The notes under the pieces are model-generated. The model saw nothing but the letters and a program-made list of their open reading frames with translations, was not told the DNA's origin and did no database searches. Made by a program: the position numbers and the translations under genes. A DNA stretch of 62,288 nt from Spirochaetia bacterium (lineage in GTDB: Bacteria; Spirochaetota; Spirochaetia; CADAEX01): assembly GCA_017535435.1 (NCBI GenBank), contig JAFXTY010000029.1, positions 1 through 62,288 on the forward strand. The letters are read 5' to 3'. Positions within the stretch are counted from its first letter, which is position 1, and every line of letters begins with the position of its first letter. Below are positions 2,010-38,289 of this stretch, in pieces.

Positions 2010-3593
2010 ATGAATGCAAAAGTTGCAAGCGTCATTATGCTGCTGGTCTTCTTTGCTGTGATGATCGCCGTAGGTTTCATCACCAGAAAAAGAGCAGCTT
2101 CTGTGGATGGATTTGTTCTGGGAGGGCGCACAGCCGGCCCGTGGATTACGGCATTTGCCTTTGGTACCTCTTATTTCTCGGCAGTTATTTTTGTAGGATA
2201 TGCAGGACAGTTCGGATGGAACTTCGGTCTCTCCAGCACCTGGGCCGGATTGGGAAACGCCTTTATCGGCTCTCTTCTGGCATGGAACATACTGGGACGG
2301 CGCACCCGTATCATGACCCAGCACATCGATGCCAAGACCATGCCGGACTTTTTCGGCAAGCGGTTTGACTCTGTCCCTATGAAGGTGGTGGCATCTGTCA
2401 TTGTCTTCATCTTCCTTATTCCTTACACATCATCTCTGTACAATGGTCTCTCCAGCCTCTTCGGACTGGTGTTCCATATGCCGTACTGGGTGGTGATCGT
2501 GATGATGGCAGCCCTCACCGGTATCTACGTAATCTTCGGCGGCTACATGGCTACAGCTATCAACGACTTTATCCAGGGAATAATCATGCTCTTCGGTATC
2601 TGCGCTGTAATCGGCTCTGTACTCAGTGCCAACGGCGGCCTGCTGGCTGCTACCCAGGCTCTTTCTGCTGTAGAGGCCAAAGGCTGGGCAGGTGGTGCCT
2701 TCACATCATTCCTGGGACCGGATCCTCTGGCGCTCCTCTTTGTAGTGCTCCTTACATCTCTGGGTACCTGGGGATTGCCTCAGATGGTCAACAAATTCTA
2801 CGCCATCAAGAGCGAGGATGATATCCAGAAGGGAACTATAATCTCAACTCTGTTCGCTATTGTTGTTGCAGGCGGATGTTACTTCCTTGGCGGCTTCGGA
2901 CGGCTCTATGCTGATAAGATCATGTACCAGAAAAACGGAGTCACACCTCTGTTCGATACAATTGTTCCGGCAATGCTTGCAACCCTGCCGGCACTGGTCA
3001 TCGCAGTAGTCATTGTACTGGTGCTCTCTGCCTCCATGTCCACACTCTCTTCTCTGGTGCTCACATCCAGCTCCACATTCACACTGGATGTTATCGAACC
3101 TCTCTCCAAGAACAAGATGGGAGAGAAGAAGAAAGTCTCCATCATGCGGGTGTTCATCGTGTTCTTCATCGTTATCTCAGCATACATTGCAATCATAAAG
3201 GATGCTCATCCTGAAATCACATTCATAGCCCAGATGATGGGTGTTTCCTGGGGTGCTCTGGCAGGATCATTCCTGGCTCCGTTCCTCTATGGTCTGTACT
3301 GGAAGGGAACTTCCCGGGCTGCCTGCTATGTCTCATTCGTTTTCGGTTGCGGTCTTATGATAATCCAGATGTGGGTTTCCCTGGGCGGCGTCGATATCTC
3401 AGGCTGGGCTCCTGTCTGCCGCTACCTCTTCGCCTCCTCTGTCCGCTCCGGTGTCATCGCTATGGTGGGCGGTCTGGTGATTGTGCCGGTAGTCAGCATG
3501 TTCACAAAGAAGCAGGATTCTGCACAGCTGGACAAGCTTTTCTCCTGCTACGAGGAGAAGGTTACTGTTGCCAAGAAAGAGGCATTGGACTGA
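2010..3593 (+). CDS. Sodium:solute symporter (SSS/PutP-like)
   Basis: About 13 hydrophobic segments; motifs GFVLGGR..GPW..AF...TSYFSA..FVGYAG, T.PDFFGKRF, GLPQMVNKFY and SASMSTLSS. RBS GGAGGA. Confidence 0.92.
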   Translation: MNAKVASVIMLLVFFAVMIAVGFITRKRAASVDGFVLGGRTAGPWITAFAFGTSYFSAVIFVGYAGQFGWNFGLSSTWAGLGNAFIGSLLAWNILGRRTRIMTQHIDAKTMPDFFGKRFDSVPMKVVASVIVFIFLIPYTSSLYNGLSSLFGLVFHMPYWVVIVMMAALTGIYVIFGGYMATAINDFIQGIIMLFGICAVIGSVLSANGGLLAATQALSAVEAKGWAGGAFTSFLGPDPLALLFVVLLTSLGTWGLPQMVNKFYAIKSEDDIQKGTIISTLFAIVVAGGCYFLGGFGRLYADKIMYQKNGVTPLFDTIVPAMLATLPALVIAVVIVLVLSASMSTLSSLVLTSSSTFTLDVIEPLSKNKMGEKKKVSIMRVFIVFFIVISAYIAIIKDAHPEITFIAQMMGVSWGALAGSFLAPFLYGLYWKGTSRAACYVSFVFGCGLMIIQMWVSLGGVDISGWAPVCRYLFASSVRSGVIAMVGGLVIVPVVSMFTKKQDSAQLDKLFSCYEEKVTVAKKEALD

Positions 3594-3622
3594 TTGTAAA
3601 AAAGGGGCTGTTGTTATATACT
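3594..3622 (+). promoter_or_regulatory. Sigma70-type promoter for the downstream ligase-like gene
   Basis: TTGTAA (3594-3599), 17-nt spacer, TATACT (3617-3622). Confidence 0.55.
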
Positions 3623-3674
3623 TTTCCCGTTGCACAGGGTGCAGCATTTTGAATTTTGCATAAGGGGTGTTCTT

Positions 3675-4868
3675 ATGAGTAGAATGGTTGGAACTGTTTC
3701 TAGAGGTCTTCGTGCCCCTATTATCCGCGAAGGTGATGATCTGGTGAAAATTGTCACAGAGACTGTTCTTGAGGCTTCTAAACAGGATGGATTTGCGGTC
3801 AGGGACCGTGATGTTGTGGCTATGACCGAGGCTATTGTGGCCCGGGCACAGGGTAACTATGCAACTGTTGCCGATATAGAGGCCGATGTGAAGGCTAAGC
3901 TGGGCGGCGGTACAATTGGAGTTGTATTCCCGATTATGAGCCGCAACCGTTTTGCAATCTGTCTCCGGGGTATCGCATCCGGTGCCAAGAAAGTTATTGT
4001 TCAGCTTTCCTATCCTTCTGATGAGGTGGGAAACCATCTTATTGATGACGATCTGGTTGAGGCAAAGGGGGTTGATCCATATACTGACGTGCTTGATGAA
4101 AAAAAGTACCGCCAGCTTTTCGGATACACAAAGCATCAGTTCACCGGTGTTGACTACATCGATTATTATAAGCAGCTGATCACAGAGAGCGGCGCCGAGG
4201 CAGAGGTTATCTTTGCCAACAATCCAAAGGCAATCCTCAGCTACACAAAGAATGTTATCTGCGCCGATATCCACACAAGAGCCCGGACAAAGCGCCTTGT
4301 AAAGGCAGCTGGCGGAGAGCGGGTATTCGGACTGGACGAGATTATGAACGCTCCTGTAAATGGCAGCGGATGCAACGAGAAGTACGGACTTCTGGGTTCC
4401 AACAAGGCTACAGAGGATAAGGTGAAGCTGTTCCCGAGAGCATGCCAGAACCTGGTTGAGGATATCCAGAAAGCTCTGTTCAAGGCTACCGGAAAGAATG
4501 TTGAAGTCATGGTTTATGGTGACGGCGCATTCAAGGATCCTGTAGGAAAGATCTGGGAGCTGGCAGACCCTGTGGTATCTCCGGCTCATACAGCAGGTCT
4601 TGCTGGCACACCTAATGAGCTTAAGCTCAAATACCTGGCAGACAACGACTTTGCTGCCCTTGATGGAGATGCTCTTAAAGAGGCTATCAAGGAAGAGATC
4701 CGGAAAAAGGATGGCAACCTGGTGGGCAAGATGGTTTCCGAGGGAACCACTCCACGGCAGCTTACAGACCTTCTTGGATCCCTCTGCGACCTTACTTCCG
4801 GTTCTGGTGACAAGGGAACTCCTATAGTTTACATCCAGGGTTATTTTGACAACTATACTACCGAGTAA
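3675..4868 (+). CDS. Coenzyme F420:L-glutamate ligase-like protein (Clostridia-type)
   Basis: MSRMVGTVSRGLRAPIIREGDDL...DRDVVAMTEAIVARAQGN and C-terminal DLLGSLCDLTSGSGDKGTPIV match CofE-like motifs. Start placed at ATG 3675 after TAAGGGG. Confidence 0.75.
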   Translation: MSRMVGTVSRGLRAPIIREGDDLVKIVTETVLEASKQDGFAVRDRDVVAMTEAIVARAQGNYATVADIEADVKAKLGGGTIGVVFPIMSRNRFAICLRGIASGAKKVIVQLSYPSDEVGNHLIDDDLVEAKGVDPYTDVLDEKKYRQLFGYTKHQFTGVDYIDYYKQLITESGAEAEVIFANNPKAILSYTKNVICADIHTRARTKRLVKAAGGERVFGLDEIMNAPVNGSGCNEKYGLLGSNKATEDKVKLFPRACQNLVEDIQKALFKATGKNVEVMVYGDGAFKDPVGKIWELADPVVSPAHTAGLAGTPNELKLKYLADNDFAALDGDALKEAIKEEIRKKDGNLVGKMVSEGTTPRQLTDLLGSLCDLTSGSGDKGTPIVYIQGYFDNYTTE

Positions 4869-33099: not shown

Positions 33100-33203
33100 T
33101 AATCTCTCCTTTTATACGCCAATTGAAGTATTAGGGAAATAAAATACAACTATTTCTGCGTATTGTCAACATATATTTACGCATTTTGAAGTATTATTTA
33201 ATT

Positions 33204-33539
33204 ATGGAAGCAAATTTCCGGAAGAACCTGAGAGATTTACTGGACTATAAATGTATTTCTGTCAAGGAATTAGCTGAAATGACCCAAATCCCTAAAAGGA
33301 CCCTAGAGAACTATCTGGGGAGCCGTGCTTCCATGCCGCCAGCCGATTATGCCCACCGGATTGCCAAGGCGCTCCATGTGACTGTGGAGTATCTCTTCTC
33401 GGATGAAGATGGCAGGTCTGACGATACAATCCCAGAATATGGTCTTGTCATGAACGAACTGAAGAATCTGCCCAAGGAAGATATAAAGATGGTGCTGGGC
33501 ATTGTACAGGCTGTGCTGAAGAATAAAAAACCAAATTAA
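33204..33539 (+). CDS. XRE-family HTH transcriptional regulator
   Basis: NFRKNL...SVKELAEMTQIPKRTLENYL...PPADYAHRIAKALHVTVEYLF. Start ATG 33204. Confidence 0.88.
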   Translation: MEANFRKNLRDLLDYKCISVKELAEMTQIPKRTLENYLGSRASMPPADYAHRIAKALHVTVEYLFSDEDGRSDDTIPEYGLVMNELKNLPKEDIKMVLGIVQAVLKNKKPN

Positions 33540-34238
33540 TAGAGCATCAAAATAAAATAATCTTATTATAAATATTAATAAAATTAATGCTTGAAAATTT
33601 TGAGCTGCACAACTCAATAATTCTTTTTTTCTGGCAAAAATGCAGTAAAAAAAAGTCTCTTGAATGATCAAAATGGGGCTGGCTATAGCTTTAGATAAAG
33701 TAAAAGCTAAAATACATAACTATTATTTATGAAAAAATGATGTTTGAAATGGACTTAAAGTTATGTCTGATAATCAATTATAAAAAAGTTTTATTTTTTT
33801 GAAAATTTTATCTGCTAAATACCCCTAAAAATCTGTATATAGGTGAGAGGGTTTTGGATCTGCCAATATGCAGAAAAACCTGGCAAAAATAAATGCAAAT
33901 ATTATTTAATTTATAAGATATAGTTATAACTTTAACTTTCGCTTCAGATTAATTTTTGGCACAAGAGGCATGTTTTAGGGTATATATAGTGAAGGGAGGG
34001 ACAAAATAAAGCACCCGCCCGCAAGCTACGGTCTGGCACGTGAGAAAAAATTTAACTTTTTTGCTTTAAAACCCTATGATTTCATAAAGTTGCCAAATCT
34101 GGCATCATAATCACTCGTCCAAAAACATTTCTTTATAATATAATTAAATAAAAACTTTTTTATTTTTTTTTCAACTTTTTGCTTTTTATAGCCCCTCAAA
34201 TTTCCCTTATATAAGTGAATTTTTTTTGAAAGGAGAAA

Positions 34239-34394
34239 ATGAAAATGATTTTTGAAGAAATTTGGACAGATGATGATGAATTTGATGAGATTGCCTATGA
34301 AGTGAACATCAATATGATAGAGGATGAATATCTGAAGGATTTGGAACACGAGGATGCATTGGATTATGGTGATTTTTCTAGAATAAAAGATTAA
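34239..34394 (+). CDS. Small, very acidic protein (51 aa; not in the ORF track)
   Basis: RBS AAGGAG 4 nt before ATG; MKMIFEEIWTDDDEFDEIAYEVNINMIEDEYLKDLEHEDALDYGDFSRIKD has 19 of 51 residues D/E. Confidence 0.65.
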   Translation: MKMIFEEIWTDDDEFDEIAYEVNINMIEDEYLKDLEHEDALDYGDFSRIKD

Positions 34395-34409
34395 CAGAAC
34401 GGTATTTAT

Positions 34410-34466
34410 AAAAACCTTTAAGGGACTGAGAAATCAGCCCCTTTTTTTGTCTTTGGAGGGAAAATG
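34410..34466 (+). repeat. Hairpin+RBS cassette repeat, copy 1
   Basis: AAAAACCTTTAAGGGACTGAGAAATCAGCCCCTTTTTTTGTCTTTGGAGGGAAAATG; near-identical to 34662-34720. Confidence 0.9.
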
Positions 34467-34643
34467 ACAAGGTTAGTAATTGACAGGAAGTTCAGGAAAG
34501 CGGGCTGGAGAATTATCCATGGTAAGTCACATGACCAGGCAGTGAGCCCAACGGGGCAGAAGGTGTCTTTGCCTCGGCATAGAGGAGATCTGGCTATGGG
34601 GACTGTAATTAACATCTTAAAAATGTCAATTTGCTGTAATTAA
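34464..34643 (+). CDS. hicA: HicA-family toxin (mRNA interferase), 59 aa; not in the ORF track
   Basis: MTRLVIDRKFRKAGWRIIHGKSHDQAVSPTGQKVSLPRHRGDLAMGTVINILKMSICCN shows the GW...G.SH...G..V..PRH..DL..GT...I.K pattern with His23. RBS GGAGG. Confidence 0.8.
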   Translation: MTRLVIDRKFRKAGWRIIHGKSHDQAVSPTGQKVSLPRHRGDLAMGTVINILKMSICCN

Positions 34644-34661
34644 AGCTAAAACACAACATAC

Positions 34662-34720
34662 AAAAACCTACAAGGGACTGAGAAATCAGTCCCTTTTTTT
34701 TGCTTTCGGAGGGAAAAATG
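34662..34720 (+). repeat. Hairpin+RBS cassette repeat, copy 2
   Basis: AAAAACCTACAAGGGACTGAGAAATCAGTCCCTTTTTTTTGCTTTCGGAGGGAAAAATG; perfect 10-bp stem with a GAAA loop. Confidence 0.9.
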
Positions 34721-34945
34721 AATCAATCAGTTAATGAATTGTGCATAAGATGTGCATTCTTTGATGTGAAGGAAGGGTGTGCCCTGGACCGGCACTGGAA
34801 ACGTGGAAAAGATGGCAAGATTACCTGTCATGACTTTATGCCCCCGGAGGCAATCACACTGCCTGCCAGCGACAGCCGGTATACTGTTGTCCATGGTATT
34901 GTGGATGTTTGGATGGGGCAAGGTTCTGAAAAAAGTTCAGAGTGA
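34718..34945 (+). CDS. Small Cys-rich protein (75 aa), putative metal finger
   Basis: ATG 34718 after the cassette RBS; C9-x2-C12-x8-C21-x15-C37. Confidence 0.6.
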   Translation: MNQSVNELCIRCAFFDVKEGCALDRHWKRGKDGKITCHDFMPPEAITLPASDSRYTVVHGIVDVWMGQGSEKSSE

Positions 34946-36418
34946 CGGTACCCACCGGTCGCCTTTAAGCTCCAGACCGTACTGTTCCCTCAGATTCCAC
35001 ACCAGCCCCTTCTGCACAGAGCGGACAGCCCTGACAAAGTCTGTGTCCTCGTGCTCGGAAAGGTAAGATCGGCAGCATTCCAGGTCGGAGGCCAACATAT
35101 TGTCCATAAGCAGCTTGGAGGCGATGAATCTCTCGTACTTTTCCACTGCGAATATCATCAGGTTGTCCAGCAGCCCTATGACTTCCCAGGTAATCTGCTC
35201 CGCCTGGGAGTACTGGCCGATATCCTTGTTCTGGTTGCTCAGCCGGATAGGAAGGTTTTCTATTATCCGGTCCAGGTTCTCCACCAGGTATTCCAGGTTG
35301 AATAGGCCAGTGGCGCAGTTGAACAGGATCGGTATTCCCGCATCCTCGTTCTTTTTTACAAACTCATTGGACACAGCCCGGCCGATATCGCCGCAGGTAA
35401 GGTGACCGTTCCTCTCCCTGATAAGTATTCCCCCCTTCACATCCATCGGTGTCTTGAAGGAGAAGTCGAAGGTGGCCTGCCGTCCTGAAAGGGCCAGTGC
35501 TGCAAGCTCGACTGGTGTTATAGTGAACCCGATGTTGTCCACATTCCCCAGGTAGACGAACTTTTTTCCCGCAGCCAGAAGCTTTTTATAGATGTCACGA
35601 AGCACTATGAAGTTCTGTCCATGTCCTCCGGGGAGTCCATAATAGCTGCCATCCTTGTCCTTGAAGAATGAGAGGGGATAGCCTGCCGATGTGGGGGTGA
35701 ATGCAGGAATCAATGGCTGTACAGCACTCTCCGGCTCTGTGACATCCACTCCGGTCCGGGTTATCAGATCCTTCAGAATAGGGGAGTTCTTGTATTCTTT
35801 ATACTTGGCCGCCAGTCTGGCATCGGTGTTGTCGCTGGTCATCTGGAAAATAGCGTGCTGATATTCTGATGCAGGCTTTCCGGTCAAAGCTTGGGACTGC
35901 TGGATATGCCTGAGCACAGAGCGCATCTTGAGCTCGATGAAGTCGTAGCCCGGGGAACCGTCCGGATTGATGTATGCAGGGGTTATTCCCTTGGGCTGCC
36001 CTTTGCATAACTGGGCCATCTTCCCGAAATCAGCCTCTGCCTGGGCAAAAAGGTCGGGATTGAACTTCGAGTTGTTCTTCACATCGCAGTAACTGGTGGC
36101 CATGCCGCCATTGAGAATGCCATAGGAGAGATAAGGAATCAGGTGGAGACCCAGCTGGTGCAGGGTATCATAGGTGAAGTGGCATGTCCCGTCAGTGCAT
36201 GGTACATCATCTATTGAGGAGTGCGGGATGCCGAACTTATCCAGCACTTTCTCGACCTGGGCTGCGCTGACAGGAAACTTCATATTTGAGCGGAGGATAA
36301 ATATATCCTTGCCGTCCGGGTGGGGAAGTATGTCGGCATCCAGGGTTTTCACATCAAGATTCCGGGATGCATTGACTGCTGCTAAAATCTTTTTGCCAAG
36401 CTCGAAATCAATTGCCAT
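34937..36418 (-). CDS. UTP--glucose-1-phosphate uridylyltransferase (UDPGP/UAP family)
   Basis: LNGGMATSY, VQPLIP, PGGHGQ, YLGNVDNIG, KTPMDVKGG and FNCATG. Confidence 0.82.
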   Translation of the reverse strand: MAIDFELGKKILAAVNASRNLDVKTLDADILPHPDGKDIFILRSNMKFPVSAAQVEKVLDKFGIPHSSIDDVPCTDGTCHFTYDTLHQLGLHLIPYLSYGILNGGMATSYCDVKNNSKFNPDLFAQAEADFGKMAQLCKGQPKGITPAYINPDGSPGYDFIELKMRSVLRHIQQSQALTGKPASEYQHAIFQMTSDNTDARLAAKYKEYKNSPILKDLITRTGVDVTEPESAVQPLIPAFTPTSAGYPLSFFKDKDGSYYGLPGGHGQNFIVLRDIYKKLLAAGKKFVYLGNVDNIGFTITPVELAALALSGRQATFDFSFKTPMDVKGGILIRERNGHLTCGDIGRAVSNEFVKKNEDAGIPILFNCATGLFNLEYLVENLDRIIENLPIRLSNQNKDIGQYSQAEQITWEVIGLLDNLMIFAVEKYERFIASKLLMDNMLASDLECCRSYLSEHEDTDFVRAVRSVQKGLVWNLREQYGLELKGDRWVPSL

Positions 36419-36477: not shown

Positions 36478-38289
36478 ATGGAAAAAAGAATAGTTACACT
36501 TGTCTTATTATGCATTTTTATTTTTCCTCTTTTTGGAGAGAGCGAGCGGATAGTGATTCTGGAGGATGGCACATACATTTCCACCTGCCGCGATTCTCTG
36601 GTCCAGCGCTCCTTTGACGGCGGGAACACATGGAGTCCTTTTACCGACGGGCTTCCTGAAAAACATGTATATCCTTTTAAAGATAAGGAATACAGAGATC
36701 TTTCCAGCATCTTCTGCCACGAGGCAAGCGGCTATATGGTGGCCTGCGGTTCCAACTTCGTCTCCCTTTATGATGTCGATACATCCACCTGGAAGAATAT
36801 TCCGGTGGGAGAGCCGGTGAAAGTCCGGTCATACTATACAGCAGTTGCAATGAAAGGGACTGATGAAGGCTATACTGTCATGATAGGTACCAGCTGTGAC
36901 GGTCTGTTTGTCACCTATGACATGGGCGCCACCTGGGAGATTTTCCCCAGCAACCGGTTCTATATCGGCGGCGGTTTTTACGAGGAGATAACTGCAATAT
37001 GTCCGGTCGACAACAAAGAACCTTACACATGGTATGCTTCAAGCCTGCCGGATAATCAGCTTTATGGCTATGACCCATATATCCAGCGCTGGAAGCCTCT
37101 TCCTACACCGGAGGCGGTGGCTGCCAATCCTATTCATGCAATTACAGATACAGGTACAGCACTCAAAGTGTTCACAGGCACCGAGGTGTATGAAGTCTCT
37201 TATGATGGCGGCGAATGGTACAAATATGATGGTCTTGAGCTTCCGGTAAAAAAGACCACTATGACGTTCTCCGAAGCTGTCAGGAAAAAAGCTGCTGCCG
37301 ACAGAACCGGTATCTACCTTAATTATATAAATGGAAAACCGGGTCGGATAGAGAATCATATAAGATTTCTTAAGGCCCACAATATGGATTCCTTTGTCAT
37401 AGACTTAAAGGATGACTTCGGCAATGTCACATGCACAACATCCAACCCGACTGCAGCTGCCAACGGAGCCAACAAGGAGTACTTCGATCTTTCCAAGCTC
37501 CTTGAGACAGCCCATAGTGCAGGCCTGTATGTGATCGGCCGCATAGTGGTGTTCAAGGATGAGCGGATGTACCGATATGACGGCTATAAATATTCAGTCA
37601 AGAAAAAGACCGATGGCAAGCCCTGGGAAAACGGCCGGGAATACTGGGTTGATCCCTTCTGTTCCGACATATGGGATTACAACATCGCTCTTGCCCTGGA
37701 GTTCCAGAATGCCGGGGTTGATGAGATCCAGTTCGACTATATACGGTTTCCTACCGACGGAAAGATTCAGAACATAGAATACACATGGTGTCACGACGGA
37801 ATGACCAACTCCGATGCCCTTGAATCCTTCCTCAAGAAGGCAAGGGAGGCAATCGCCATTCCTATAAGTGTGGATTTCTACGGTTTCAACGGCTGGAACA
37901 AGATGGAGAAATGGAATGGACAGAATCTGGTCATGGCCAGCAAGTATGTGGATGTGGTTTCCCCTATGTATTATCCTTCCCATTTTTCAACAGATTTCCA
38001 TAAAAAAGGACGTAGCTACATGGAATGGGCTGAATATATTTACGAGGCTGGAACTCTCCATTCCAAGCTTATAGGCGGCTATAACAACTGTCTGGTGAGA
38101 CCCTTTGTCCAGGCTTTCCTGGTGGGAGATGAGAAAGCTTTCAGCGAGTCGGAATACCACGAATATTATAGGCGGCAGATTTCTGGTCTTTCCAAGGAGA
38201 AGGCCAGCGGATTCACCCTGTGGAACTCCTCCAATAAATACTATATGGTGCCTTCGGGCTTCAAGGCTTCTTCAAAAGTGCAGCCTTGA
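36478..38289 (+). CDS. Secreted protein: Asp-box beta-propeller plus putative glycoside hydrolase (DUF4015-like) TIM barrel
   Basis: Asp-boxes SFDGGNTW, TYDMGATW and SYDGGEW; C-terminal VIDLKDDFG, IGRIVVFKD, DEIQFDYIRFP and PMYYPSHF. Confidence 0.75.
   Translation: MEKRIVTLVLLCIFIFPLFGESERIVILEDGTYISTCRDSLVQRSFDGGNTWSPFTDGLPEKHVYPFKDKEYRDLSSIFCHEASGYMVACGSNFVSLYDVDTSTWKNIPVGEPVKVRSYYTAVAMKGTDEGYTVMIGTSCDGLFVTYDMGATWEIFPSNRFYIGGGFYEEITAICPVDNKEPYTWYASSLPDNQLYGYDPYIQRWKPLPTPEAVAANPIHAITDTGTALKVFTGTEVYEVSYDGGEWYKYDGLELPVKKTTMTFSEAVRKKAAADRTGIYLNYINGKPGRIENHIRFLKAHNMDSFVIDLKDDFGNVTCTTSNPTAAANGANKEYFDLSKLLETAHSAGLYVIGRIVVFKDERMYRYDGYKYSVKKKTDGKPWENGREYWVDPFCSDIWDYNIALALEFQNAGVDEIQFDYIRFPTDGKIQNIEYTWCHDGMTNSDALESFLKKAREAIAIPISVDFYGFNGWNKMEKWNGQNLVMASKYVDVVSPMYYPSHFSTDFHKKGRSYMEWAEYIYEAGTLHSKLIGGYNNCLVRPFVQAFLVGDEKAFSESEYHEYYRRQISGLSKEKASGFTLWNSSNKYYMVPSGFKASSKVQP

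What the first reader, a model, noticed from the sequence alone, without database searches (positions are those of the whole stretch)
34239..34945. Array of three mini-genes separated by a repeated hairpin+RBS cassette
Seen: acidic 51-aa ORF, cassette, HicA, cassette, Cys-rich 75-aa ORF. The two ~58-bp cassettes are near-identical and each supplies a GAAA-loop hairpin, a U-tract, GGAGGG and the ATG of the next gene; the genes themselves are unrelated. A terminator-like element before each gene is paradoxical for an operon. Inference: a modular gene-capture or shuffling array (compare the promoter/stem-loop repeats flanking variable small ORFs in T4-like phages, or integron-like cassettes), or stepwise attenuation that keeps toxin below antitoxin. 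The upstream XRE could be the regulator. Recombination between the repeats would cleanly delete hicA.
Basis: partly seen in the sequence, partly recalled or inferred. Interest (0 to 1): 0.72.

Follow-up and report, generated by a model that had tools for sequence, protein, structure and literature searches.

The report
Twin terminator-RBS repeats bracketing a hicA toxin gene
In a rumen spirochaete, a small toxin gene (hicA) sits between two near-identical terminator-hairpin-plus-ribosome-site repeats. These repeats exchange sequence with each other and, in some wild strains, have recombined to delete the toxin gene cleanly; this is a local quirk of one conserved locus, not a gene-capture system.

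Summary
Two ~58-nt cassettes lie at 34407-34464 and 34659-34716. Each has an A-rich flank, a 10-bp hairpin with a GAAA loop, U7-8, GGAGGG and an ATG. They bracket hicA, with an acidic 51-aa ORF upstream and a Cys4 75-aa ORF downstream.

The three-gene, two-cassette layout is ancestral to two clades of ruminant-gut Spirochaetia and always sits at the same chromosomal site (XRE ... UDPGP). I found the cassette nowhere else: not in phages, plasmids, a relative's genome, or four metagenomes that hold this organism.

All strain differences are losses: hicA, the acidic ORF, or both. The Cys ORF is always kept. The hairpin halves of the cassettes evolve in concert. One haplotype has the same derived loop and flank in both copies, and another is a mosaic.

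A DNA contig and an independent RNA contig show clean cassette-by-cassette deletions of hicA with different crossover points.

Best reading: the cassettes are paralogous leaky intrinsic terminators fused to ribosome-binding sites. They insulate and step down a hicA-first operon, as in the published HicA^T B operons, and they double as recombination substrates. The gene-capture reading is not supported; the predicted deletion is. This is a new variant of a known kind, of moderate interest.

The parts
33186..33539 (+). XRE/Cro-C1-type HTH regulator gene, conserved upstream neighbour in every relative (context; regulatory role untested)
   Evidence: Pfam HTH_26 E 7e-6. Weak matches to NCBIfam RstR and PADLOC CapH. 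Syntenic in loci L001 and L010-L021.
34185..34218 (+). Promoter-like region: TTTATA-17 nt-TATATA, within the box TATATAAGTGA that is conserved in both clades, 20 nt before the acidic ORF start. Presumed single promoter of the operon (inferred).
   Evidence: Sequence. The box is conserved in the alignment of relatives and in L030/L031. Motif hits at 33836 and 34208.
34239..34394 (+). Acidic 51-aa ORF (pI 4.05, 19 D+E), a real but dispensable gene confined to this lineage
   Evidence: Eight homologue clusters, all at this locus. Synonymous:non-synonymous codon changes are 9:5 and 8:4. Present in clade A and in clade-B strains L030/L031. Lost in L013-L017, L027 and L001. Recurrent in-frame deletions.
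34407..34464 (+). Cassette 1: A-rich flank, hairpin 34420-34443 (GAAA loop, one A.C mismatch), U7, GGAGGG 34455-34460, and the hicA ATG
   Evidence: The orthologous copy is present in all relatives except L001.
34464..34643 (+). hicA toxin gene (59 aa, pI 11, catalytic-type His23), under strong purifying selection
   Evidence: Synonymous:non-synonymous 9:1. Deleted in the X12 and X25 alleles and in L001.
34659..34716 (+). Cassette 2: A-rich flank, perfect hairpin 34672-34695 (GAAA loop), U8, GGAGGG 34708-34713, followed by the ATG at 34718
   Evidence: Present in every relative, including L001.
34718..34945 (+). Cys-rich 75-aa ORF (invariant C9, C12, C21, C37). An orphan family, always retained; candidate non-HicB antitoxin (inferred).
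   Evidence: No Pfam, NCBIfam or PADLOC hit. The AF2 model is unusable, pLDDT 43.
34937..36418 (-). Convergent UDPGP-family gene whose 3' end overlaps the Cys ORF by 9 nt (context). Cassette 2 is the first terminator-like hairpin downstream of it on the minus strand.

Best explanation
The two cassettes are paralogous copies of one intergenic module: a canonical Rho-independent terminator (8-10-bp stem, tetraloop, U7-9, A-rich 5' flank, so it looks bidirectional) fused to a strong Shine-Dalgarno sequence and a start codon. They bracket the toxin gene of a vertically inherited, lineage-specific three-gene locus (acidic ORF, hicA, Cys4 ORF) in ruminant-gut Spirochaetia.

Inferred function: transcription starts at one conserved promoter upstream of the acidic ORF. 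Each hairpin stops part of the polymerases, so mRNA dosage steps down in the order acidic ORF > hicA > Cys ORF, and hicA is insulated on both sides, including from the convergent UDPGP gene. This is the logic shown experimentally for the internal terminator of HicA^T B operons. The U-run plus GGAGG then drives translation of whatever reads through.

Shown here: the copies are 252 nt apart in direct orientation, and they recombine. This homogenises their hairpin halves (concerted evolution and mosaics) and recurrently deletes hicA precisely, leaving an intact acidic-cassette-Cys operon. The Cys ORF is never lost while hicA is present and survives hicA loss, which makes it the likeliest antitoxin. 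The acidic ORF is dispensable.
For: Terminator anatomy. The hairpins are -11 to -17 kcal/mol and are followed by 7-9 U in every haplotype. They are among the top-scoring terminator-like elements in 20 kb and the only ones there with an unbroken 7-8-T run. The stem is 98.6% paired across nine distinct copies, with one compensatory A-U<->G-C pair, while the loop varies (GAAA, GTAA, GCGA, AAAA, TTGC).

No internal promoter. No conserved -35/-10 lies inside the cassettes (my reading of the alignment).

Read-through. RNA-run contigs span hairpin to next start codon: X25 covers 34268-34448 plus the Cys start, and X26 covers 34225-34468.

Precedent. PMC11878559 describes an internal terminator between hicA and hicB that gives about 10-fold more hicA mRNA.

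Ancestral and vertical. Both cassettes flank hicA in clade A (window, L010-12, L018-23, L027) and clade B (L013-17, L030-31), always between the XRE and UDPGP genes.

Concerted evolution. In L020-L023 both copies share an identical 39-nt tract with derived states (flank G, loop TTGC), while the 3' tails stay copy-specific. In L027, c1 has a c2-type tail and c2 has a c1-type flank.

Deletion alleles. X12 DNA contig, 252-nt skip; X25 hybrid.

Not dispersed..

hicA is functional. Synonymous:non-synonymous 9:1; HicA fold.
Against: Termination efficiency and transcript ends were not measured. The only RNA data are low-depth assembled contigs, which cannot show 3' ends and may include DNA carry-over. 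One of them, X26, is labelled 'GENOMIC RNA-Seq', so it may not be RNA at all.

Attenuation before the putative antitoxin is counter-intuitive for a chromosomal TA pair, and the antitoxin role of the Cys ORF is pure inference: it has no homology and no usable model.

Six of the eight stem pairs are invariant across clades whose hicA genes are only 70.6% identical. This could mean sequence-specific recognition rather than mere pairing.

In L027 a promoter-like TATATAT box sits about 10 nt before hairpin 1, which would place the hairpin at the mRNA 5' end, an odd position for a terminator.

The TTGC loop is not a GNRA loop.

The X12 and X25 junctions rest on contigs at 2.4-3.5x depth. An RT or PCR template switch cannot be excluded for X25.

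Confidence: 0.6

Rival explanations
1. PeSL-like mobile regulatory cassette, or gene-capture array. The cassettes would be recombination handles through which single genes are inserted, via small circles carrying one cassette, and are swapped and excised. hicA would be one captured module.
For: The repeat runs from just after the upstream stop codon to the downstream ATG, as in PeSLs. Two direct repeats bracketing one gene is what Campbell-type integration of a one-cassette circle would give. Clean excision-type alleles exist. In L027, homology to the window breaks exactly at the first base of hairpin 1, with 109 nt of unrelated sequence upstream. Earlier notes of this scan report hic modules bracketed by terminator-bearing direct repeats in other phyla; these are unchecked leads.
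Against: There are only two copies, always at one chromosomal site. I found none elsewhere in a relative's genome, viral contigs, phage or plasmid collections, or four metagenomes holding the organism. The slots hold only the same three genes, and every variant is a loss from a common ancestor. hicA and the acidic ORF are found only at this locus. The cassette has no sigma70 promoter. No circle or 'goes back' junction between copy 2 and copy 1 appeared in the 24 runs laid across the locus; a sixth call laid only the 63-nt cassette, and its single 'goes back' row there is the ordinary match to copy 2.
Confidence: 0.13
2. 5'-UTR expression and stability module. Each cassette would act mainly as a 5' stem-loop (after processing in the A-rich flank, or from weak internal promoters) that protects the downstream mRNA. 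The U-run would be an S1-binding translational enhancer placed before a strong SD. Termination would be secondary.
For: The promoter-proximal acidic ORF has the same U8-N6-GGAG-A-rich-ATG leader but no hairpin (family D2), so U-run plus SD is a shared translation context. In L027 a TATATAT box lies about 10 nt upstream of hairpin 1. In L001 the hairpin-U9-SD unit is kept in front of the Cys ORF although the upstream gene is gone. HicA is an RNase and the flank is A-rich (general knowledge).
Against: A stable hairpin followed directly by 7-9 U is the defining signal of intrinsic termination, and RNA polymerase would respond to it. No conserved internal promoter is present. No data on processing sites are available.
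Confidence: 0.15
3. DNA-level operator. The palindromes GGGACTGA-N4-TCAGTCCC would be binding sites for a dimeric repressor, either the neighbouring XRE protein or the Cys4 protein acting as an antitoxin-repressor, which would block transcription into hicA and the Cys ORF.
For: The half-sites are nearly invariant across clades while the 4-nt spacer varies freely. That is the pattern expected for an operator. Type II antitoxins commonly bind palindromes (general knowledge). The XRE gene is always adjacent.
Against: The U7-9 tract directly after the palindrome is equally conserved and has no role in an operator model. The sites lie after coding regions rather than at the promoter. No further half-site occurs in the promoter or intergenic region; the only other GGGACTGA in the window is at 36856. 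The one stem change is compensatory on both arms.
Confidence: 0.07

Closest known systems
HicA^T B operons of IncI2 plasmids: an internal intrinsic terminator between hicA and hicB (Lin et al. 2025, Nucleic Acids Res, PMC11878559)
   Same: The toxin gene comes first. A GC-rich hairpin plus U-tract lies in the short gap before the downstream partner gene. Both genes depend on one upstream promoter. The published effect is premature termination after hicA and about 10-fold more hicA than hicB mRNA.
   Different: Here the U-tract is canonical (7-9 U, not UUU). A second, paralogous terminator also precedes hicA. The downstream partner is an orphan Cys4 protein with no HicB similarity. The locus is chromosomal and lies in Spirochaetia. 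The two terminators recombine with each other. No expression data exist for this locus.
PeSL (promoter-early stem-loop) cassettes of T4-type phages (Arbiol et al. 2010, PMC2839356; Comeau et al. 2014, PMC4122927)
   Same: A short composite intergenic module runs from the upstream stop codon to the downstream SD and ATG and contains a terminator stem-loop. Recombination between neighbouring copies deletes the gene in between (here).
   Different: PeSLs contain a consensus sigma70 promoter, occur about 50 times per genome in hyperplastic regions, flank many different ORFans, and form mini-circles. Here there is no promoter, only two copies at one site, the same three genes in every strain, and no circles seen.
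Deletion and gene conversion between short direct repeats (general bacterial genetics: RecA-dependent or slipped-strand events, stimulated by palindromes)
   Same: Repeats of 40-58 nt lie 252 nt apart. Precise loss of one repeat plus the intervening DNA occurs, with variable crossover points. The copies are homogenised.
   Different: The repeats here are functional regulatory modules conserved across species, and the deleted segment is exactly one toxin ORF, so the deletion leaves a correctly punctuated operon.
Canonical hicAB type II toxin-antitoxin modules (E. coli HicAB, PDB 6hpb)
   Same: HicA has the dsRBD-like fold, a conserved His, a basic 59-aa protein, and a toxin-first gene order.
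   Different: No HicB (no partial RNase-H fold, no HTH or RHH antitoxin) lies in or near the locus on either strand. An extra acidic ORF lies upstream.

Membership tests
Rho-independent (intrinsic) terminator | Stable GC-containing stem-loop | tested here: met
   8-10-bp stems, -10.8 to -16.7 kcal/mol, in all ten haplotype copies. 98.6% of cells are paired across nine distinct copies.
Rho-independent (intrinsic) terminator | Run of about 7-8 U directly after the stem | tested here: met
   U7-U9 in every copy.
Rho-independent (intrinsic) terminator | Transcript 3' ends at the U-tract in vivo | not testable with these tools
   Only assembled RNA contigs were available. They show read-through molecules but cannot show 3' ends.
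HicA toxin (PF07927) | Sequence match to the family profile | tested here: inconclusive
   26.8 bits against a gathering cut-off of 27, E 5.6e-6. PADLOC HicA-like E 0.0018. The best four PDB sequence hits are all HicA family members, but weak (E 0.14-0.46).
HicA toxin (PF07927) | dsRBD-like alpha-beta-beta-beta-alpha fold with the conserved His | tested here: met
   AF2 model, pLDDT 73.6, elements H-E-E-E-H. Foldseek top hit 6hpb_A, E. coli HicA, prob 1.0, TM 0.65, rmsd 1.8 A. His23 aligns with the His of 1whz and 4c26.
hicAB type II TA pair | Adjacent HicB antitoxin | tested here: not met
   No HicB hit for any ORF on either strand of 33300-35066. The downstream Cys ORF is an orphan family.
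HicA^T B-type operon (internal terminator) | hicA first, with a terminator hairpin in the gap before the partner gene | tested here: met
   Cassette 2 lies between the hicA stop (34643) and the Cys ORF ATG (34718).
HicA^T B-type operon (internal terminator) | Excess of hicA mRNA over partner mRNA that depends on the terminator | not testable with these tools
   No quantitative RNA data exist for this organism.
PeSL regulatory cassettes | Consensus sigma70 promoter inside the cassette | tested here: not met
   No promoter call inside either cassette. The A-rich flanks differ between copies and clades, with no conserved -35/-10.
PeSL regulatory cassettes | Many dispersed copies in front of diverse ORFans | tested here: not met
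   Two copies in the window. One hit in the related species' genome, at the same locus. Only c1 and c2 matched in four metagenomes that hold the organism. None in viral contigs, phages or plasmids. The window's own whole genome could not be searched.
PeSL regulatory cassettes | Recombination between neighbouring copies deletes or exchanges the gene in between | tested here: met
   X12 DNA contig joins 34419 to 34672. X25 carries a hybrid cassette. Mosaic and homogenised copies occur.
PeSL regulatory cassettes | Mini-circle products | tested here: inconclusive
   No 'goes back' joint between copy 2 and copy 1 appeared in the 24 runs laid across the locus. Contigs are a poor detector of circles.
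Integron gene cassettes | IntI-type integrase and attI next to the array | tested here: not met
   The genes within about 4 kb are an LpoB-like lipoprotein, a lipoprotein, XRE, UDPGP, DUF4015 and a Y-family polymerase. No recombinase is present.

The most novel reading that the evidence does not exclude
hicA is a recombinationally excisable toxin unit. The twin terminator-RBS modules would be kept identical because they serve as a built-in switch that produces toxin-free cells in the population at an appreciable rate, and perhaps allows re-insertion of a hicA circle. The orphan Cys4 protein would be a new, non-HicB class of HicA antitoxin, and the hyper-acidic peptide a second, optional modulator. 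This would be a chromosomal bacterial counterpart of phage PeSL modules, applied to a toxin gene.
Probability: 0.12. Interest if true: 0.7.

Novelty: new variant of a known kind. Interest (0 to 1): 0.45.

Why it matters
Three points make this worth recording. First, it gives a second, phylogenetically remote example of a terminator placed inside a hicA-first operon, here duplicated so that the toxin gene is insulated on both sides. That suggests transcription attenuation is a general way to set toxin dosage in hic systems. Second, it shows that regulatory punctuation (terminator plus RBS) can double as a recombination substrate. The punctuation makes a toxin gene precisely and recurrently deletable while the rest of the operon stays intact, and natural deletion alleles coexist with full alleles in gut communities. 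Third, it points to an orphan Cys4 protein as a candidate non-HicB partner of HicA, which can be tested with simple co-expression assays.

Tried and rejected
2. The exact-pattern scan of genome contigs gave nine loci. Eight are unrelated taxa in which the same 24-mer is simply a generic GAAA-loop terminator. Only L001 is homologous.
3. A metagenome contigs pattern scan gave 0 hits, and a protein-anchored scan returned only duplicates of loci already held. That collection evidently lacks most of the relevant contigs, so these are weak negatives.
4. The viral-contig, phage and plasmid searches, by DNA and by protein, were all empty.
5. Rfam returned only two chance-level hits.
6. The AF2 model of the Cys ORF failed (pLDDT 43). 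An exhaustive profile search found no remote homologues, so I could not test a HicB-like fold.
7. The HicA word-based homologue search returned only one cluster.
9. I rejected GNRA-loop conservation as an argument. Loops TTGC and AAAA also occur.
10. I rejected the acidic ORF as the essential antitoxin. Intact hicA persists without it in L013-L017 and L027.
11. I rejected cassette-by-cassette recombination as the cause of the L001 deletion. L001 keeps the last ~15 nt of hicA and lacks the promoter region.
Full report
OBSERVATION

- The acidic 51-aa ORF is at 34239-34394.
- Cassette 1 is at 34407-34464. Its hairpin, AAGGGACTGA-GAAA-TCAGCCCCTT, is at 34420-34443, followed by T7, GGAGGG at 34455-34460 and the ATG at 34464.
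- hicA is at 34464-34643.
- Cassette 2 is at 34659-34716. Its hairpin at 34672-34695 is perfect, followed by T8, GGAGGG at 34708-34713 and the ATG at 34718.
- The Cys-rich 75-aa ORF is at 34718-34945. Its end overlaps by 9 nt a convergent UDPGP-family gene at 34937-36418 on the minus strand.

The copies are 83% identical without gaps. The 29-nt core occurs twice in 62 kb, against 0.00 expected by chance. Both fold as hairpins followed by U-runs. In a 20-kb scan they are among the top-scoring terminator-like elements and the only ones followed by an unbroken run of 7-8 T. The scan lists copy 2 on both strands but copy 1 only on the minus strand, because of its A.C mismatch.

GENE IDENTITIES

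hicA.
- The Pfam HicA_toxin score is marginal: 26.8 bits against a cut-off of 27.
- The best four PDB sequence hits are all HicA family members, though weak (E 0.14-0.46). The two printed alignments place query His23 on the HicA His.
- The AF2 model has pLDDT 73.6 and an alpha-beta3-alpha fold.
- Its best structural match is E. coli HicA, 6hpb_A, with prob 1.0, TM 0.65 and rmsd 1.8 A.
- The gene is under strong purifying selection: 9 synonymous to 1 non-synonymous codon change against two relatives.

Cys ORF.
- It has four invariant cysteines: C9, C12, C21 and C37.
- It has no Pfam, NCBIfam or PADLOC match.
- An exhaustive profile search of 1.84 billion representatives found only two, both from this locus.
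- Its AF2 model is unusable, pLDDT 43.

Acidic ORF.
- It has pI 4.05 and 19 D+E residues.
- It has eight homologue clusters, all at the same locus.

No HicB-like ORF exists on either strand.

RELATIVES

The hairpin core as an exact pattern hit nine genomes. Eight of these are unrelated taxa where it is simply a generic terminator. The ninth is L001, a Spirochaetia MAG from yak omasum, and it is syntenic. Look-ups by protein identity brought in loci L010-L023 and L027-L032 from ruminant-gut metagenomes. In each contig long enough to show the flanks, the order is the same:
- LpoB-like lipoprotein and a second lipoprotein;
- the XRE gene;
- the locus itself;
- the UDPGP gene, then DUF4015.

The haplotypes are as follows.
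- Clade A, full form (window, L018/19, L010-12, L020-23): acidic ORF, c1, hicA, c2, Cys75.
- Clade B (Cys ORF 59-61% identical; hicA 70.6% identical at the nucleotide level; hicA starts with GTG). L030/L031 have the acidic ORF (about 80% identical) followed by c1 and hicA; L031, which runs further, also shows c2 and the Cys ORF. L013-L017 have the same layout but with the acidic ORF replaced by about 100 nt of non-coding sequence.
- L027 (clade A): no acidic ORF. Homology with the window stops at 33916 and resumes exactly at the first base of hairpin 1 (34420).
- L001: a deletion runs from the promoter region through all but the last ~15 nt of hicA. Cassette 2 and the Cys ORF remain intact.

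The three-gene, two-cassette layout is therefore ancestral to both clades, and every variant is a loss. The Cys ORF is never lost.

THE CASSETTES RECOMBINE

(a) Concerted evolution. In L020-L023 both copies carry an identical 39-nt tract, AAAAACGTTTAAGGGACTGATTGCTCAGTCCCTTTTTTT. Its derived states, a G in the flank and the loop TTGC, are seen in no other haplotype. Meanwhile the 3' tails remain copy-specific and orthologous to those of the window: c1 has T7-GTCTTTGGAGGG and c2 has T8-GCTTTCGGAGG. In L027, c1 has a c2-type tail, while c2 has a c1-type 5' flank and an AAAA loop.

(b) Deletion alleles. DNA run X12 has a 266-nt contig at depth 3.5 that joins 34331-34419 to 34672-34848. This is a 252-nt skip, and 18 letters fit both sides, so the crossover lies in AAGGGACTGAGAAATCAG. 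The same run also holds a contig of the hicA interior. Because the shared exact stretch is only 18 nt, a k=31 assembler cannot have invented this junction (my reasoning about how the contigs are built; no tool tested it). Metatranscriptome run X25 has a contig that covers 34268-34448 and then continues TGCTTTCGGAGGGAAAGATGAA. That keeps c1's CAGCCCC but has c2's tail and the Cys ORF start, so its crossover lies further 3' and in an L010-like strain. These are two independent events. For X25, an RT template switch cannot be ruled out. No deletion alleles appeared in the other runs laid.

(c) The acidic ORF also shows slippage-type indels: 48-nt and 51-nt in-frame skips, a 66-nt deletion, and the 33-aa variant P0012.

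THE CASSETTE IS NOT DISPERSED

- There are two copies in the window.
- The related species' genome has one hit, at the same locus.
- Viral contigs, phages and plasmids have none.
- When the 63-nt cassette was laid at 80% likeness or more on all contigs of four metagenomes that hold the organism, only c1 and c2 matched.
- hicA and the acidic ORF are likewise found only at this locus.

MECHANISM

Shown: canonical terminator anatomy is conserved in all haplotypes, with an 8-10-bp stem of -11 to -17 kcal/mol and U7-9. The stem is 98.6% paired, with one compensatory A-U<->G-C pair and one G-U, while loops vary freely. No conserved promoter lies inside the cassettes. A conserved TATATAAGTGA box lies 20 nt before the acidic ORF. 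RNA-run contigs cross a hairpin into the next gene.

Inferred: one promoter drives the operon. Each hairpin is a leaky terminator, so dosage steps down from the acidic ORF to hicA to the Cys ORF. With their A-rich 5' flanks, the hairpins also look bidirectional and could stop antisense transcription coming from the convergent UDPGP gene.

There is a direct published precedent for the supposed paradox of a terminator inside an operon. The HicA^T B operons of IncI2 plasmids carry an internal intrinsic terminator between hicA and hicB. It gives about 10-fold more hicA mRNA and is required for plasmid competition (PMC11878559).

The Cys ORF is always present with hicA and is retained after hicA loss (L001, X12, X25). 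That makes it the likeliest antitoxin, but this is inference only. The acidic ORF is dispensable for carrying an intact hicA (L013-17, L027).

RIVALS

- PeSL-like capture. Architecture and deletions fit. The defining promoter, the multiplicity of copies and the diversity of cargo do not.
- 5'-UTR stabiliser or enhancer module. The acidic ORF's own leader has the same U8-N6-GGAG context without a hairpin. L027 has a promoter-like box about 10 nt before hairpin 1.
- DNA operator. The half-sites are invariant and the spacer varies, but the equally conserved U-tract and the lack of any half-site near the promoter argue against it.

Earlier notes of this scan report hic modules bracketed by terminator-bearing direct repeats in several other phyla. 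I did not check these leads. They raise slightly the possibility that hicA originally arrived by recombination at a terminator.

VERDICT

The locus is a vertically inherited, decaying small-gene operon whose toxin gene is bracketed by paralogous terminator-RBS modules. These modules evolve in concert and mediate precise toxin deletion. It is a new variant of known kinds: internal-terminator hic operons, and repeat-mediated deletion in the PeSL style. It is not a gene-capture array. The expression model and the antitoxin assignment remain to be tested.

Noticed in passing
window 33540-34238: A 700-bp AT-rich intergenic region (23-33% GC) lies between the XRE gene and the acidic ORF. It holds further copies of the promoter-like box: TATATAGGTGA at 33836 and tatatatagtga around 33985. 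Each is followed by G-rich/C-rich segments that could form small hairpin RNAs. Much of this region is absent or different in relatives, and L001 and L013 have one such box followed by GGGG...CCCC.
   Followed up: partly
window 34272-34322 and 34330-34395: The acidic ORF has recurrent natural indels between short GATGA-type repeats: 48-nt (X18) and 51-nt (X26) in-frame skips, the 33-aa variant P0012, and a 66-nt deletion that removes its 3' end and stop codon (X10).
   Followed up: partly
L020-L023, both cassettes: The loop TTGC is the reverse complement of the GNRA loop GCAA. This suggests a loop flip within the palindrome, later copied to the second cassette. L027's c2 has an AAAA loop.
   Followed up: no
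L027 657-868 (protein P0003): In this 868-nt contig the Cys ORF diverges after residue 55 (the profile match ends at residue 56). It continues in frame into sequence that hits PF13636 (an RsmF-type PUA domain). This is either a real rearrangement or a chimeric assembly.
   Followed up: no
L013 about 3590-3690 (the segment replacing the acidic ORF): On the minus strand, the ~100-nt replacement contains AAAAGGAGGATATAAATG. This resembles the acidic ORF's RBS and start in inverted orientation, so the loss may have involved an inversion plus a deletion.
   Followed up: no
window 34937-34945: The Cys ORF and the convergent UDPGP-family gene overlap by 9 nt at their 3' ends, with no terminator between them. 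The first hairpin downstream of UDPGP on the minus strand is cassette 2, so antisense transcription across the Cys ORF is possible.
   Followed up: no
window 33186-33539: The XRE protein gives weak full-length matches to the RstR-family phage repressor (NCBIfam, 37.9 bits, below cut-off) and to PADLOC CapH (E 3.7e-9).
   Followed up: no
clade B loci (L013-L017, L030, L031): hicA starts with GTG behind GGAGGTG, instead of ATG behind GGAGGG. This may lower toxin translation.
   Followed up: no
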